DNA of 64,000 nt, from the sequence record OR352953.1. One strand, written 5' to 3'. The position numbers and the translations under genes were made by a program. Under the pieces are notes generated by a model that did no database searches, was not told where the DNA came from, and saw only the letters and a list, made by a program, of their open reading frames with translations. The first letter of the stretch is position 1; each line of letters starts with the position of its first letter. Origin of the DNA: Escherichia phage AV123. Positions 4,684 to 12,882 of the stretch are shown here, in pieces.

Positions 4684-4713
4684 AAAAAGGAGCCTATTGG
4701 CTCCTTTTCTTTT
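4684..4713. terminator. Bidirectional hairpin terminator between convergent genes
   Basis: AAAAAGGAGCCTATTGGCTCCTTTTCTTTT lies between + gene end 4681 and - gene end 4717. Confidence 0.65.
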
Positions 4714-4716
4714 ATC

Positions 4717-5148
4717 TTAATCAGTGAAAATTACGCTTACATCTTCTTTAGAGAAGAGTTTATGATCTTCACCTTTTGTCTCAAGAGTTTCATACAGGTT
4801 AAGAAGTTCTGAAACATCCTTCTCTACCAGTTTCTTCAATGTTGCAATTTTCTGTTTGCGATTCTTAATACGTTCAGCTACAACCTTACGTTGGTATCCG
4901 GCAGTACGATAACCTGAGAAAGTTACACCAGTGAGACTTGCAGTTACAGGATCGTAATGACGTTCAATCTGAAATTTATTAAAAGGTACAGCGTCATCAC
5001 GAATAATCTTACCGCCATTACTTACTTGACGAAGACCAGTAACTTGTTCCAGTCGTGCCATAGAAATCTTTGGAGACAGACCAGAGTCCAGGTTCATACC
5101 GTTGTTAATCAGTGCTTTCAGGGTGATTTTGCTGTTCAGTGTACTCAT
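4717..5148 (-). CDS. Hypothetical protein
   Basis: GGAGGAA RBS before ATG at 5148; overlaps 3' end of the methyltransferase gene. Confidence 0.5.
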   Translation of the reverse strand: MSTLNSKITLKALINNGMNLDSGLSPKISMARLEQVTGLRQVSNGGKIIRDDAVPFNKFQIERHYDPVTASLTGVTFSGYRTAGYQRKVVAERIKNRKQKIATLKKLVEKDVSELLNLYETLETKGEDHKLFSKEDVSVIFTD

Positions 5149-5836
5149 TTAGTCGTTCCTCCGCTTGCTTAAAAATATTTACATCGGCTTCACAGCCTAA
5201 GTATTCTCTACCTGTTAAAAGTGCCGCAACTTGTGTTGTTGCACTTCCAGAGAAGAAGTCTAAGACTACATCTCCTTCGTTGGTGTGTATATTAATAAGG
5301 TCACAAAACAAAGTCAAGTGCTTTTGTGTTGGATGAAAACGATCTGCTCCTTGATAGATAGGATACTCAAACACACCCTTATGGTAGGAAGCATTGAAGG
5401 TTGGCTTCGAACCTTTAACACAAACAATAGCCATCTCTTTAGCGTTACTAAGGTAGTTAACACCACTGTTGATGGGTACAGGGTTTGTTTTAATCCATTC
5501 AATAGTACGGAACATACGAAAACCAAGCGGTTCAAGGATTTCACGTAGCTCCTGGATCTTCCAGATATCATACCAAACTATGCAAGTACCACCTTTTCTA
5601 AGCACCCTATAGGCTTCTTTGAATACTTCTTTAAAGTAAGGAATATCTACAACATCCCAATCACCAAAGTTGTAAGATACACGGAATCTATCTGTATCTT
5701 TTCCAGTAGGCTCTCCAGATTGAAAATTTGTATCACGAGAAATAGCATATGGTGGGTCAGTAAGAATCAAATCTACACTGTTGCTTTCGAGGGTTTGCAG
5801 GTAGTTTAATGCGGTGTTGTTTACAAATTCGCTCAT
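5105..5836 (-). CDS. DNA methyltransferase (beta-class N6-adenine or N4-cytosine)
   Basis: LILTDPPYAI (DPPY motif) precedes DFFSGSATT (FxGxG SAM motif); that motif order defines the beta class. Confidence 0.8.
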   Translation of the reverse strand: MSEFVNNTALNYLQTLESNSVDLILTDPPYAISRDTNFQSGEPTGKDTDRFRVSYNFGDWDVVDIPYFKEVFKEAYRVLRKGGTCIVWYDIWKIQELREILEPLGFRMFRTIEWIKTNPVPINSGVNYLSNAKEMAIVCVKGSKPTFNASYHKGVFEYPIYQGADRFHPTQKHLTLFCDLINIHTNEGDVVLDFFSGSATTQVAALLTGREYLGCEADVNIFKQAEERLNEYTEQQNHPESTD

Positions 5837-5854: not shown

Positions 5855-5874
5855 AAGGAGCCGTTAGGCTCCTT
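5855..5874 (-). terminator. Hairpin terminator
   Basis: AAGGAGCCGTTAGGCTCCTT between genes. Confidence 0.5.
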
Positions 5875-5896: not shown

Positions 5897-6844
5897 TTAG
5901 AAACAGTGCAGGAAGTTTCGACCATACTGCAAACCAATAGGAGCAAATGGGATATCATCATCGAAATCTTGAACAACAGGTTCTGGCTCTTTCGGTGCTG
6001 GCTCTTTCTTCTCTACTTTTTTAGTTTCTTTCTTAACTTCTTGTACTGGGGTAGACATTCCACGGATAGCAGCAGCTACTTTATCAGACAAAGCAAGAAC
6101 TTCACGAGCAGCTTCAATAATCTCTTCTGCCGTTACAGTTTTACCTGTATGATCACGACAAGCATTAAGAATTGCGTGTCCAACTGAAGCACCAAGATCA
6201 TAATCAGTTACATCAACGCCACGATCTTTAGCAATTTCAGCTTTCAGAGTAACAGTTGCAGATTGTACCACACCAGCCAAATCGAAAGCATCACCTTTCA
6301 CACCAGCACGTAGAAGCTCCAGAGCGCCGTTTACAGCGTGTCCTGTTTCAATCCCTACGGTATCACGTTTTTTGTAGTTAGGCTTGCTACCATCGTTATT
6401 AGATGGCTTATTTCCACCTTTTGAAGAAGATTGTGCTTGCTGAACACCTTCTGTTGAAAGAATAGTGATTTTACCTTTAGAGGAATTGTAGTATGTTTTG
6501 CCATTCCATTCAGAAGGTTTAACATCCATAGTTAGTTCTACACCTTTTTCGATAGTAACCCACTTATCACCATCTTTAACTTGCAGGTTTTCATGTTCTG
6601 GGTGCAGTTTAACTTCACCTAAGCTAACCCAAACACCTTTATCATCAGCACCAGCACCTTTCTCTTTAATAAGCAGAGATGCTTTGTGAGTTGATTCAAT
6701 TTTCTTATCTGGCTGACCTGCAACCTTAATATAAGAGACTTTCATTTCATCAAACTTATCTAGTTTGACATATTCGACAATACCTTCAGCCCAGAATGCT
6801 TCTTTTTTAGTACGGCGGTCGATTTCAGAATTAATTACTGGCAT
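5897..6844 (-). CDS. Putative ssDNA-binding protein with SSB-type acidic tip motif
   Basis: GAGGAG RBS; translation contains DFDDDIPF (E. coli SSB C-terminal tip) 18 residues before the end; K/E-rich linker. Confidence 0.45.
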   Translation of the reverse strand: MPVINSEIDRRTKKEAFWAEGIVEYVKLDKFDEMKVSYIKVAGQPDKKIESTHKASLLIKEKGAGADDKGVWVSLGEVKLHPEHENLQVKDGDKWVTIEKGVELTMDVKPSEWNGKTYYNSSKGKITILSTEGVQQAQSSSKGGNKPSNNDGSKPNYKKRDTVGIETGHAVNGALELLRAGVKGDAFDLAGVVQSATVTLKAEIAKDRGVDVTDYDLGASVGHAILNACRDHTGKTVTAEEIIEAAREVLALSDKVAAAIRGMSTPVQEVKKETKKVEKKEPAPKEPEPVVQDFDDDIPFAPIGLQYGRNFLHCF

Positions 6845-6860
6845 AAATTCTCCTCTATAA

Positions 6861-11109: not shown

Positions 11110-12882
11110 TTAATAAGAACCATCAGGAATATTCTCTGGGTTACTTGTATATTGATCGTAATCGTGAAGTGTAGCTGTTTTAATCTCATAGAAGAAACTA
11201 CCTGCTGCACCAGTCTCTGAGAACTCACGGTTCTTTAGAATGTAGCAATATGTACGGTTACGTTCCATAGGATCTTCAGCTTGTTTATCACGCTCCAGCG
11301 CAATTGTAATACCAGCACCTTTAGCAAGGAAGCTACTACCCATTGCATCATCTTCTACAATATGTTCATTACTATTGTTAGAAGACTTTTTAACGTGTGA
11401 AATTACAACAATGGTAATTGCGTACTCTTTCATAATGCGTTTCAGCCACGTCGCAAGTTCCTCTTGTTGTGACACGTCCATACCAGAAAGCAAATCAGAA
11501 TAAGGGTCGATAACAAGAATGGTTACTCCGAAATAAATAATCATTTCCAGAACCTTCTCTTTAATCACATCTACGTTAGCTCCACGATCATCACAAACAT
11601 AGAAACGTGGTGTTCCATCTTCTCGTTCGTAAAAATCACGAATCTTTTCTTCATTATCTTTTAAAATCTTTTCCTTCTCTTCTTTTGTTTTACGGTGAAG
11701 AGGGATATGCAAGAATGAAGACAGCAAGTTACGAGAATACTTCTTATACGTTGCCTCCAAAGATAAAATACCAAGAGTATGTTCTGGGTGTGCAAGAATA
11801 ATGTGTTTCGTAATCTCGTTAACCAACAGTGTCTTACCGATACTTGTTTTTGCAAGTATAACAGTAATTTCTTCTTCTACCAAGCCTCCACCTAACATAT
11901 TAGAAGCAACACGCATGAATGGAGGAAGGGTGATCATTTTAGCTTCCAGGCATTCCAGGGCTGCTTCATACAGTACGTTAGAAGCGTAAACACCAGCAGG
12001 TGTGTACAGTTTAGCTTTGAAAAAGCGATCAATAAAATGATCAATTTTTCCTTCTACTAGTGCCTGGTTAGGATCTTTAACATCCGTTAGTTCCATCACG
12101 TAAACTTTATTACGTGGTAAGATTTTAACACATTTCTCAACTGCTGCACGTCCAGCTTCATCATTATCCATACATAGAACAATCTTTTTAAATTGATCTA
12201 AGAATTTATAACGATGTTGAAGCTGCTTATGCAGAGATGTTTCGCCACAAGTACCAGATACTACAGCAGGAACAGGATATTTACCACCCTTATTATAATC
12301 TTTTAGCATCTGTGTTGCAGCCAGCATATCGTGTTCACCACCAACGATTAGAATAGTACCGCTGTGGTTACGATATTTAAACTCCCCAAAAAGATCACAA
12401 TCCTTTCCTGTTTCACCGATAGGATGCGAGAAATCTTTTGGATCGATACGTTGTTTATACCCAGCAATATTGTAATCTTTAGTTGTAGGGTATAGTGTTG
12501 AAATTACTTCGCCAGTAGCCTCATCGTACATATAGCGTACACCGAAAGGCTTAGAGATATCTTCACGAATACCACGATAACCTTTTGGATTAGTTCCAGT
12601 GCTGGCTTTTAGTTTATCATGTACTTCTTGATTAAACTCACTACCCAAGATATCCTCCTCTTCAATTTCTTCGCCGTGTGCATTTAACCATTTTTGATCA
12701 GGGATAGTAAAGCCACAAGAAAAACAATGTGCGCCTCGATGGTCTTCATCGGCATCTAAGCCATATACCATCAAATTGTTTTGTGATCGATCACGCCCTC
12801 CTTTCATACAACGAGGACACCCAGTATGTCCTTCTTGACTTAGATCAATGTTATACCCATATTTATTTACAACATAAGACAC
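11110..12882 (-). CDS. Primase-helicase (T7 gp4-like)
   Basis: GTG start after GGAGA; N-terminal Cys4 zinc ribbon (CPRC...CFSCGF), TOPRIM-like DNDEAG, DnaB-type Walker A AKTSIGKT. Confidence 0.85.
   Translation of the reverse strand: MSYVVNKYGYNIDLSQEGHTGCPRCMKGGRDRSQNNLMVYGLDADEDHRGAHCFSCGFTIPDQKWLNAHGEEIEEEDILGSEFNQEVHDKLKASTGTNPKGYRGIREDISKPFGVRYMYDEATGEVISTLYPTTKDYNIAGYKQRIDPKDFSHPIGETGKDCDLFGEFKYRNHSGTILIVGGEHDMLAATQMLKDYNKGGKYPVPAVVSGTCGETSLHKQLQHRYKFLDQFKKIVLCMDNDEAGRAAVEKCVKILPRNKVYVMELTDVKDPNQALVEGKIDHFIDRFFKAKLYTPAGVYASNVLYEAALECLEAKMITLPPFMRVASNMLGGGLVEEEITVILAKTSIGKTLLVNEITKHIILAHPEHTLGILSLEATYKKYSRNLLSSFLHIPLHRKTKEEKEKILKDNEEKIRDFYEREDGTPRFYVCDDRGANVDVIKEKVLEMIIYFGVTILVIDPYSDLLSGMDVSQQEELATWLKRIMKEYAITIVVISHVKKSSNNSNEHIVEDDAMGSSFLAKGAGITIALERDKQAEDPMERNRTYCYILKNREFSETGAAGSFFYEIKTATLHDYDQYTSNPENIPDGSY

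What the first reader, a model, noticed from the sequence alone, without database searches (positions are those of the whole stretch)
5897..6844. SSB tip motif DFDDDIPF placed internally rather than at the C-terminus
The protein carries the exact E. coli SSB C-terminal tip, but it is followed by 18 more residues (APIGLQYGRNFLHCF), and the N-terminal region does not obviously resemble the bacterial SSB OB fold. Bacterial SSB partners recognise the tip with its free carboxylate, so an internal copy could be a decoy, be exposed by processing, or mark a different SSB family.
Basis: partly seen in the sequence, partly recalled or inferred. Interest (0 to 1): 0.45.

Follow-up and report, generated by a model that had tools for sequence, protein, structure and literature searches.

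The report
Phage SSB with extended C-terminal tip
This is the phage's own single-stranded-DNA-binding protein, whose copy of the host SSB docking tip (DDDIPF) is capped by a conserved 15-residue add-on; the same add-on recurs on many unrelated phage replication proteins and I found no description of it, so how these proteins talk to host partners is an open, testable question.

Summary
The ORF is on the minus strand (5897..6844, 315 aa). DFDDDIPF is residues 293-300, and 15 residues follow it (APIGLQYGRNFLHCF), not 18.

It is not a frameshift. 56 phi92-like phage genomes carry the same intact ORF.

The body is a non-canonical SSB: a predicted OB fold, a four-helix domain and a disordered linker. 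It belongs to PHROG 4477, is homologous to the DRT10 trigger Bas52_0087, and sits in the replication module.

The extension is not peculiar to this family. It is a conserved, phage-restricted C-terminal module (PF-AP[IV][GT]L[QPM][YF]..., 14-17 aa, hydrophobic end). It occurs on canonical PF00436 SSBs, other SSB-like families and primase/helicases of gamma-proteobacterial phages.

The module is under purifying selection as a peptide and is scattered among tail-less close relatives. It moves horizontally, in documented cases together with an HNH homing endonuclease inserted directly behind it.

The tip stays as conserved when internal as when terminal. My best reading, which is inferred, is a composite or second docking motif that changes partner choice. 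Masking or a pro-peptide, a selfish hitchhiker and a degron remain open.

I found no published description.

The parts
5897..6844 (-). Complete ORF (315 aa plus stop) of the phage SSB-like protein; orthologue of phi92 gp156
   Evidence: same intact ORF in 56 phage genomes; PHROG 4477 E=2.6e-101
6850..6856 (-). Shine-Dalgarno AGAGGAG, 5 nt upstream of the ATG
   Evidence: read directly
6452..6844 (-). Residues 1-131: predicted OB-fold beta domain (putative ssDNA-binding core)
6365..6451 (-). Residues 132-160: low-complexity disordered inter-domain linker
   Evidence: pLDDT 47-68
6059..6364 (-). Residues 161-262: four-helix domain. It carries the family's near-invariant D161, G164, H169, A170, N172, and D161 aligns with the DRT10-escape site D252 of Bas52_0087. 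It is a putative oligomerisation domain.
   Evidence: paper 10.64898/2026.04.29.721553
5969..6058 (-). Residues 263-292: Lys/Glu/Pro-rich intrinsically disordered linker
   Evidence: pLDDT 50-69; length and sequence vary across homologues
5945..5968 (-). Residues 293-300: DFDDDIPF, identical to the E. coli SSB C-terminal tip but internal here
   Evidence: P299 and F300 invariant, D293/D295/D297 >=90% conserved in the family
5900..5944 (-). Residues 301-315: APIGLQYGRNFLHCF, the conserved portable C-terminal tail module (15-17 aa length class)
5855..5874 (-). Terminator-like hairpin AAGGAGCC-TAAC-GGCTCCTT plus a T run, 22 nt after the stop. It matches the hairpin that ends the operon in tail-less relatives.

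Best explanation
The gene encodes the replication/recombination ssDNA-binding protein of a phi92-like myovirus (Justusliebigvirus, Stephanstirmvirinae). Its predicted architecture is an N-terminal OB fold, a four-helix (probably oligomerisation) domain, a disordered linker and a host-mimicking acidic tip DFDDDIPF. That is functionally the layout of bacterial SSB on a different scaffold.

A 15-residue tail (APIGLQYGRNFLHCF) follows the tip. It is one instance of a conserved, phage-restricted, horizontally mobile C-terminal module that only ever occurs directly after a ...PF tip. The points up to here are shown by the analyses below.

The mechanism is inferred. The tail removes the free alpha-carboxylate that host SSB-interacting proteins use to grip the terminal Phe, and it adds a second short linear motif (invariant G-L-x-Y core, hydrophobic new C-terminus). 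Tip plus tail would then act as a composite docking peptide with a partner specificity different from host SSB. It would favour one conserved partner, most likely a host protein of gamma-proteobacteria, over the general host SSB interactome.

The tail reached this lineage by recombination at the conserved tip-coding DNA. A likely vehicle is a homing endonuclease that inserts immediately 3' of it, as seen in sister lineages.
For: Identity as the phage SSB:
- The gene lies in the replication module: primase/helicase, Pol A, nucleotidyltransferase, this gene.
- It matches PHROG 4477.
- It is homologous in both domains to Bas52_0087, described as SSB-like and genetically required for DRT10 triggering.

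The tail is a real module:
- 21 of 100 family clusters carry it.
- A back-translated pattern for IPFAPIGLQY finds 38 viral contigs, against about 0.03 expected by chance on an assumed library size of about 1e11 bases (my arithmetic). All hits are ORF ends directly after an acidic tip.
- A tail profile finds 71 cluster representatives among 1.84 billion, about 55 of them with the tail, and with one exception (P0181) every match lies at the protein's C-terminal end.
- Carriers include PF00436 SSBs, DnaB_C primase/helicases, and PHROGs 2544/32668, 9002/DUF669 and 3284.

Selection on the peptide:
- Among 29 distinct class-1 tail DNAs, synonymous sites are saturated (pS about 0.8). The unconstrained last 7 codons have pN/pS 0.44, with I/L, L, C and M positions kept through 5-7 different codons.
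- Window versus P0004: 5 synonymous and 0 non-synonymous changes in the first 8 tail codons.
- Window versus PsgM04F: 5 synonymous and 0 non-synonymous changes in 24 codons.

The tip is still constrained: exact DDDIPF in 18/21 tail-bearing versus 55/78 tail-less members.

The module is phage-restricted: only 7 hits in 185,579 species genomes, and 21 of 651 plasmid matches cover >=80% of the query, mostly Vibrio plasmids of 48-104 kb that I take to be phage-plasmids.

The partner is likely host-encoded. Carriers range from large lytic myoviruses with their own Pol A to temperate phages with lambda-O-type replication and Rad52/RdgC modules and no polymerase nearby.

Mobility:
- Tail-bearing members are scattered in at least 12 places on the family tree.
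- The PsgM04F gene is 80-98% identical to a tail-less relative over most of its length. Its 72-nt tip+tail, however, is 93% identical to the window's, while the rest of the gene is 45-80% identical.
- phAPEC8 (tail-less) and ECO340P2 (tail plus endonuclease deletion scar) are 98% identical in the rest of the gene.
Against: No partner has been identified and no complex could be modelled, so the docking function is inference only. AF2 gives the tail low confidence (pLDDT about 50, coil).

Tail-bearing and tail-less alleles coexist in otherwise 97-98% identical genes of viable phages, so the tail is dispensable at least in some backgrounds.

The link with homing endonucleases allows a purely selfish spread. 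Within the large myoviruses the GRNF[LI]HC[FI] tails are young (about 93% nt identity), so selection within this particular lineage is not demonstrated.

Confidence: 0.45

Rival explanations
1. Masking or pro-peptide. The tail's role is to block the tip's free carboxylate so that the phage SSB does not engage host SSB-interacting nucleases and helicases, or defence sensors. Alternatively the tip is kept latent until a protease cuts at the invariant F|A-P junction and exposes a normal DDDIPF-COOH.
For: The tip is as conserved when internal as when terminal, which fits a tip that becomes functional later. The junction residues PF-AP are the most invariant part of the module. A related, tail-less family member is a trigger of the DRT10 defence, and its tip was proposed to interfere with ExoI/SbcB. 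That gives a plausible selective reason to hide the tip.
Against: Masking alone would not need an invariant G-L-x-Y core and a fixed length. No protease is known or predicted for an F|AP site in the cytoplasm. No truncated forms can be inferred from sequence.
Confidence: 0.2
2. Selfish hitchhiker. In this lineage the tail is a passenger delivered by co-conversion when an HNH homing endonuclease (PHROG 2340) invaded the 3' end of the SSB gene. It is tolerated rather than useful, and the endonuclease was later lost.
For: An endonuclease of one family starts inside or just after the tail-coding DNA in PsgM04F, KE23, L055/P0004, L012 (remnant) and L041. ECO340P2 keeps the tail plus a two-ended scar of that endonuclease, next to a gene 98% identical to tail-less phAPEC8. 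9 of 120 sampled copies of this endonuclease family sit directly behind an SSB tip or tail. The tip+tail block is mosaic relative to the gene body. Tail-less relatives have no gene downstream.
Against: Most tail-bearing genes have no endonuclease nearby. The peptide is conserved through saturated synonymous change. The tail is fixed and intact in all of the roughly 55 phi92-like genomes. No significant endonuclease scar is detectable after the window's stop codon (p about 0.2). A variant endonuclease also sits behind a tail-less allele, so the endonuclease does not need the tail.
Confidence: 0.2
3. Degron or localisation signal. The hydrophobic new C-terminus (…HCF, …MCM, …YALA) targets the protein for timed proteolysis by ClpXP or Lon, or tethers it to the membrane as a short amphipathic helix.
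For: The module always ends in hydrophobic residues at a nearly fixed distance from the tip. Some variants (…LYALA, …SALYA) resemble the ssrA tag end YALAA (my recollection of the tag sequence). Single-sequence AF2 drew a helix at 302-314, at very low confidence.
Against: Most ends (CM, CI, CF, VM) do not fit the ClpX LAA-type motif. The invariant part is the N-terminal APIGLQY, not the extreme end. MSA-based AF2 predicts coil. A 15-residue peptide with R/N/H is weak as a membrane anchor.
Confidence: 0.1
4. Artefact. A sequencing frameshift or a lost stop codon turned an ordinary terminal tip into an internal one.
For: None beyond the unusual position of the motif.
Against: The ORF is identical in 56 independently sequenced genomes. 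The extension is a conserved peptide found on hundreds of other genes in many codon versions.
Confidence: 0.01

Closest known systems
E. coli / gamma-proteobacterial SSB (Pfam PF00436) with its SSB-Ct tip MDFDDDIPF
   Same: Overall logic of OB core, disordered linker and acidic tip. Eight tip residues are identical. The gene sits in a replication module. Many other carriers of the same tail are true PF00436 proteins.
Bas52_0087 of Escherichia phage RudolfGeigy (Vequintavirus), the SSB-like trigger of the DRT10 reverse-transcriptase defence (bioRxiv 10.64898/2026.04.29.721553)
   Same: Homologous N-terminal OB (41% over 88 aa) and helical domain (32% over 177 aa). The escape site D252 aligns with the near-invariant D161 here. 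Same FDDDIPF motif.
   Different: Bas52_0087 has a second OB domain (408 aa) and ends exactly at ...SFDDDIPF, so it is tail-less. Nothing published on it addresses an extension.
T7 gp2.5 (SSB) and gp4 (primase-helicase) acidic C-terminal tails ending in Phe
   Same: In Vequintavirinae both the SSB-like protein and the primase/helicase end in the same kind of acidic ...PF tip (Bas52: DDDIPF and DDETPF). In Mydovirus and Seunavirus both carry tip+tail. This parallels T7, where both tails dock on the polymerase (established knowledge).
   Different: In T7 the terminal aromatic residue is the C-terminus. The window phage's own primase/helicase has no such tip. Tail carriers include phages without a polymerase nearby.
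Phage HK620 SSB, whose last six residues (NDYPPF) are needed for its cognate recombinase Sak4 (PMC5928155)
   Same: Precedent that a phage SSB C-terminus is tuned to a phage-specific partner. Many tail-bearing canonical SSBs sit next to Rad52-like annealases and RdgC.
   Different: In HK620 the motif is terminal and there is no APIGLQY-type extension. No annealase is evident next to the window gene.
Free-standing homing endonucleases next to phage SSB genes (for example T4 segG beside gene 32; from my own knowledge)
   Same: An HNH/EndoVII-like endonuclease (PHROG 2340) sits immediately 3' of the SSB gene. There are signs of co-conversion and later decay.
   Different: Here the endonuclease start codon lies inside the tail-coding DNA, and the event changes the C-terminus of the SSB protein. 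The window itself has no endonuclease.

Membership tests
Bacterial-type SSB (Pfam PF00436) | Sequence match of the OB domain to the PF00436 profile | tested here: not met
   No Pfam family at E<=1; no PDB sequence match at E<=10
Bacterial-type SSB (Pfam PF00436) | OB-fold ssDNA-binding core | tested here: met
Bacterial-type SSB (Pfam PF00436) | Disordered linker ending in an acidic tip whose last residue is Phe with a free carboxylate | tested here: not met
   Linker and DFDDDIPF are present, but 15 residues follow F300
Bacterial-type SSB (Pfam PF00436) | High-affinity ssDNA binding, homotetramer | not testable with these tools
   Needs purified protein (EMSA, SEC-MALS)
PHROG 4477 / Bas52_0087-like SSB-like proteins of Stephanstirmvirinae and Vequintavirinae | Profile match over the OB and helical domains | tested here: met
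   PHROG 4477 E=2.6e-101; BLASTP to Bas52_0087 2e-15 and 3e-14; 100 homologous clusters
PHROG 4477 / Bas52_0087-like SSB-like proteins of Stephanstirmvirinae and Vequintavirinae | Conserved helical-domain signature D161-x2-G164-x4-H169-A170-x-N172 | tested here: met
   Near-invariant columns in the 75-sequence alignment; D161 aligns with Bas52 D252
PHROG 4477 / Bas52_0087-like SSB-like proteins of Stephanstirmvirinae and Vequintavirinae | Last gene of the Pol A / nucleotidyltransferase replication operon | tested here: met
   Synteny in Eryne, PsgM04F, L052, L054, L055, phAPEC8
Tip-plus-tail C-terminal module (defined here) | Acidic ...PF tip followed without spacer by [AS]P[IVL][GT]L[QPM][YF] | tested here: met
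   DFDDDIPF-APIGLQY; P, F, G, L, Y invariant in 31 diverse tails
Tip-plus-tail C-terminal module (defined here) | 14-17 residues after PF, ending in a hydrophobic residue at the true C-terminus | tested here: met
   15 residues ending ...HCF; length classes 14 (21 variants), 15 (12), 16-17 (7); with one exception (P0181) all profile hits are C-terminal
Tip-plus-tail C-terminal module (defined here) | Encoded by a phage or phage-like element of gamma-proteobacteria | tested here: met
   The window is phi92-like; distribution
T7 gp2.5-type acidic C-terminal tail | Terminal aromatic residue docking on the phage DNA polymerase or helicase | tested here: not met
   The aromatic residue of the tip is internal. 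The window's primase/helicase lacks a matching tail. Binding itself is not testable here.
Bacterial beta-clamp-binding motif (QL[SD]LF / QLxLxL; consensus recalled from memory) | Q followed by hydrophobic residues at +1 and +3/+4 (or +5) | tested here: inconclusive
   By inspection only. QYGRNFL here and QYPALL in the 14-aa class resemble the delta-subunit type QAMSLF at best. No model or assay was run.

The most novel reading that the evidence does not exclude
The tail is a previously unrecognised phage-specific short linear motif that rewires the host SSB interactome. By converting the carboxylate-dependent tip into an internal, extended ligand, it would give phage ssDNA-binding and helicase proteins private, high-affinity access to one host factor, or blockade of it. 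Candidates are a nuclease such as ExoI, the clamp or clamp loader, or a defence sensor. Alternatively, the tail is encoded by the homing-endonuclease cassette to bias repair towards homing. Either way it would be a new class of viral host-mimicry peptide that spreads between unrelated replication proteins by homing-endonuclease-assisted recombination.
Probability: 0.3. Interest if true: 0.75.

Novelty: new variant of a known kind. Interest (0 to 1): 0.55.

Why it matters
The SSB C-terminal tip is the hub through which about 20 genome-maintenance proteins find ssDNA in bacteria. It is also an antibacterial target and the compatibility determinant for recombineering proteins.

A conserved phage-only extension that removes the tip's defining free carboxylate, yet keeps the tip under selection, implies one of three things:
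- an unknown partner;
- an unknown processing step;
- an unknown way of evading host nucleases or defences that watch phage SSBs (Retron-Eco8, Hachiman, DRT10).

The question is directly testable, because a 99.7% identical protein is present in a phage of the public BASEL collection. The documented link to homing endonucleases also shows how a protein-interaction peptide can be moved between unrelated replication genes.

Tried and rejected
- Single-sequence AF2 was useless (mean pLDDT 36). The MSA-based run was needed.
- Pfam and PDB sequence searches of the whole protein found nothing.
- Literature searches for the strings IPFAP and GLQYG, for phi92 gp156, and for phage SSB tip extensions found no description of the tail.
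It then returned only fragments under 80 aa. These were useful as extra tail variants and as allowed input for the exhaustive search, but not as a census.
- I looked for an endonuclease deletion scar after the window's stop codon, like the one in ECO340P2. The similarity is not significant (shuffle p about 0.2), so I do not claim it.
- I considered that the shared partner is the phage Pol A, by analogy with T7. I rejected this as a general explanation because many carriers are temperate phages with lambda-O-type replication and no polymerase nearby.
- I considered that the endonuclease always brings the tail. I rejected this because most tails have no endonuclease, and because a variant endonuclease follows a tail-less allele and other tail-less tips.
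- BFVD structure matches were only uncharacterised family members.

Full report
**What is in the window**

The finding's coordinates hold a single minus-strand ORF, 5897..6844, of 315 codons. It has a strong Shine-Dalgarno sequence (AGAGGAG, 6850-6856) and a terminator-like hairpin 22 nt after the stop codon (5874-5855). The protein ends ...EPVVQ-DFDDDIPF(293-300)-APIGLQYGRNFLHCF(301-315).

The eight residues DFDDDIPF are identical to the end of E. coli SSB. No other D[IVL]PF or GLQY motif occurs in a credible ORF of the window.

**Not an artefact**

Megablast finds the full 948-nt ORF in 56 phage records, 55 of them at 95-99% identity. tblastn shows that these are phi92-like phages (Justusliebigvirus, Stephanstirmvirinae; phi92 gp156 is 96.8% identical). 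All of them cover residues 1-315. Re-sequencing is therefore unnecessary. The ORF is real and fixed in this genus.

**What the body of the protein is**

- Pfam and PDB sequence searches find nothing. PHROGs places the protein in family 4477, of unknown function.
- The gene is the last one of the replication operon: primase/helicase, hypothetical, Pol A, nucleotidyltransferase, hypothetical, this gene. A few depositors already label it SSB.
- AlphaFold2 on a 75-sequence alignment gives a confident model with mean pLDDT 84.8. It has a beta domain at residues 1-131, a disordered linker, a four-helix domain at 161-262, and a disordered region from 263 to the end.
- The protein is homologous in both domains to Bas52_0087 of the Vequintavirus RudolfGeigy. 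A 2026 preprint describes Bas52_0087 as SSB-like and shows genetically that it is needed to trigger the DRT10 reverse-transcriptase defence. The escape substitution D252V falls on the residue that aligns with D161 here, and D161 is nearly invariant in the family.

So the body is a non-canonical phage SSB. ssDNA binding itself has not been tested for any member.

**The tail is a separate, portable module**

Of the 100 homologous clusters retrieved, 78 end exactly at ...PF and 21 carry an extension. The extensions have one pattern. After PF comes [AS]P[IVL][GT]L[QPM][YF], followed by 7-10 more residues that end in a hydrophobic residue.

- In 31 diverse examples, P, F, G, L and Y are invariant, and A, P and Q are at least 90% conserved.
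- There are two length classes: 14 residues (…QYPALLMCM type) and 15-17 residues (…QYGRNFLHCF, …QYARHAIYAL type).

The module is not tied to this protein family. A back-translated DNA pattern for IPFAPIGLQY finds 38 viral contigs. Chance expectation is about 0.03 by my arithmetic, assuming a library of about 1e11 bases. Every hit is the end of an ORF directly after an acidic tip, and most are canonical bacterial-type SSBs of 40-56 kb phages.

A tail-only profile was searched exhaustively against 1.84 billion cluster representatives. It finds 71 proteins at E <= 0.001, about 55 of them with the tail, and with one exception (P0181) every match lies at the protein's C-terminal end. The carriers are:

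| Carrier type | Evidence |
|---|---|
| PF00436 SSBs | |
| PHROG 4477 (this family) | |
| PHROGs 2544/32668 | |
| PHROG 9002 / DUF669 SSBs | |
| PHROG 3284 | |
| DnaB_C-type primase/helicases of Mydovirus and Seunavirus (…DDDTPF-APIGLQYA[NK]HAIYV[LI]) | |

In the Vequintavirus Bas52, both the SSB-like protein (…SFDDDIPF) and the primase/helicase (…FEDDETPF) end in bare tips. The tail is therefore an optional add-on to whatever protein carries such a tip.

It is essentially restricted to phages:

- 190 of 611 matching phage records cover at least 80% of the tip+tail query.
- Only 7 hits occur in one genome from each of 185,579 species, six of them in gamma-proteobacteria and one on a 56-kb contig of a Parasphingorhabdus (alphaproteobacterial) MAG.
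- 21 of 651 plasmid matches cover at least 80% of the query. Most are Vibrio plasmids of 48-104 kb, which I take to be phage-plasmids; most matching plasmids overall are typed non-mobilizable.

**Selection**

Among 29 distinct DNA versions of the 14-residue class, synonymous sites are saturated (pS about 0.8-1.0). The last seven codons were not constrained by my search pattern. They have pN/pS 0.44, and their I/L, L, C and M positions are held through five to seven different codons.

The window and P0004 differ by five synonymous and no non-synonymous changes in the first eight tail codons. The window and PsgM04F differ by five synonymous changes in the 24 tip+tail codons. The tail is therefore translated and constrained as a peptide.

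The tip in front of it is not decaying either. Exact DDDIPF is present in 18/21 tail-bearing members and in 55/78 tail-less members.

**How it moves**

On a neighbour-joining tree of the family body, tail-bearing members sit in at least a dozen separate places, each next to tail-less sisters. The same tail subtype (GRNF[LI]HC[FI]) appears on distant branches.

The PsgM04F gene is 80-98% identical to a tail-less relative over most of its length. Its 72-nt tip+tail block, however, is 93% identical to the window's, while the rest of the two genes is 45-80% identical. That is a recombination junction just upstream of the tip.

In Phapecoctavirus, three alleles of a 97-98% identical gene exist:

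| Phage | Allele |
|---|---|
| phAPEC8 | tail-less, followed only by a terminator |
| nepoznato | tail-less, followed by an HNH endonuclease |
| ECO340P2 | tail-bearing, followed by a two-ended scar of an endonuclease (its first about 22 nt and last about 20 nt) |

An endonuclease of one family (PHROG 2340) lies immediately behind the tail, or starts inside the tail-coding DNA, in PsgM04F, Seunavirus KE23 (behind the primase/helicase tail), L055/P0004, L012 (remnant) and L041. Of 120 sampled copies of that endonuclease family, nine sit directly after an SSB tip or tail.

Tail-less relatives of the window gene have no downstream gene at all. The 3' end of phage SSB genes is thus a homing-endonuclease hot spot, and homing with co-conversion is a documented vehicle for the tail.

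In the window itself there is no endonuclease, and I could not demonstrate a scar. Instead, a cassette of a DNA methyltransferase and a 143-aa ORF follows. It is bracketed by two copies of the operon's terminator hairpin.

**Mechanism**

Three things are shown:

- The tail abolishes the free carboxylate of the terminal Phe.
- The tail is conserved as a peptide.
- The tip remains conserved.

The rest is inferred. Carriers include large lytic phages with their own replisome and temperate phages with lambda-O-type replication and Rad52/RdgC modules. Because of this spread, the common partner is more likely a conserved host protein of gamma-proteobacteria than a phage protein.

My preferred reading (0.45) is that tip+tail is a composite or second docking motif that changes partner specificity relative to host SSB. 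The rivals are:

- masking or a pro-peptide, with later exposure of the tip (0.2);
- a tolerated passenger of homing-endonuclease traffic, at least in this lineage (0.2);
- a degron or membrane tether (0.1).

A resemblance to clamp-binding motifs (QAMSLF type) rests on inspection only and is inconclusive. No tool available here could model a complex.

**Comparison with the known, and novelty**

The protein works like an SSB and belongs to the Bas52_0087/PHROG 4477 family. It fails two defining features of bacterial SSB: the PF00436 match and the terminal tip.

The closest functional analogies are the T7 gp2.5 and gp4 tails, and the HK620 SSB tail that serves its cognate recombinase (PMC5928155).

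I found no description of the APIGLQY-type extension in 8 million full texts. The only paper on this family treats the motif as a C-terminal tip, and for its own tail-less protein that is correct.

I rate this a new variant of a known kind, of moderate-to-good interest. It is directly testable with a public BASEL phage whose protein is 99.7% identical.

Noticed in passing
L003 3047-3541; L004 3059-3511; L055 4944-5372; L012, L041; L059 2385-2816; L060 2431-2480: A PHROG 2340 HNH/EndoVII-like homing endonuclease family (N-terminus CFKCG..KPL..FYKH..MADGHLNKCKEC) repeatedly sits directly 3' of SSB tip/tail coding DNA, with its start codon inside the tail. Phage ECO340P2 keeps only a two-ended scar of it. 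9 of 120 sampled copies follow an SSB tip or tail.
   Followed up: partly
window 4684-4709 and 5855-5874 (minus strand), flanking 4717-5836: The same terminator hairpin (AAGGAGCC-nnnn-GGCTCCTT) occurs twice. The two copies bracket an N6/N4 DNA methyltransferase (5105-5836) and a 143-aa ORF of PHROG 20244 (4717-5148). Tail-less relatives have one hairpin and no cassette, so this looks like an insertion at the terminator.
   Followed up: partly
L057 32613-34691 (Bas52 primase/helicase); L004 1024-3078; L051 518-2581: Vequintavirinae primase/helicases end in an SSB-like acidic tip (FEDDETPF in Bas52) or in tip+tail (Mydovirus, Seunavirus). This echoes the shared gp2.5/gp4 tails of T7. The window's own primase/helicase (11110-12882, minus strand) has no such tip.
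   Followed up: partly
loci L013, L015, L022, L028, L035, L036 and others: In temperate gamma-proteobacterial phages the tail-bearing canonical SSB is typically flanked by a Rad52-like annealase, an RdgC(-FtsK-gamma) protein and, 10 nt downstream, an MT-A70 DNA methyltransferase. In the window a methyltransferase is also the next gene. Whether SSB-methyltransferase adjacency means anything was not tested against tail-less controls.
   Followed up: no
phage records MG065639, MG065689, MG065650: Records named 'Campylobacter phage' A150, A110a and B15 encode proteins essentially identical to those of E. coli phi92-like and phAPEC8-like phages (98.7% to the window protein for A150/A110a). The host label looks doubtful.
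   Followed up: no
P0066: UniRef names a Vequintavirinae homologue of this SSB-like protein (Salmonella phage SalP219) 'tail fiber protein'. This is probably a misannotation carried over from the neighbouring convergent tail-fibre genes.
   Followed up: no
P0130, P0132, P0139-P0143, P0164, P0167: SSB fragments labelled E. coli, Salmonella or Klebsiella in NCBI (which I take to be prophage-encoded) carry a divergent tail variant, DFDDDIPF-APVTLPFPRHAIHAI, in which G-L-Q-Y is replaced by T-L-P-F. NCBI annotates them simply as SSB.
   Followed up: no
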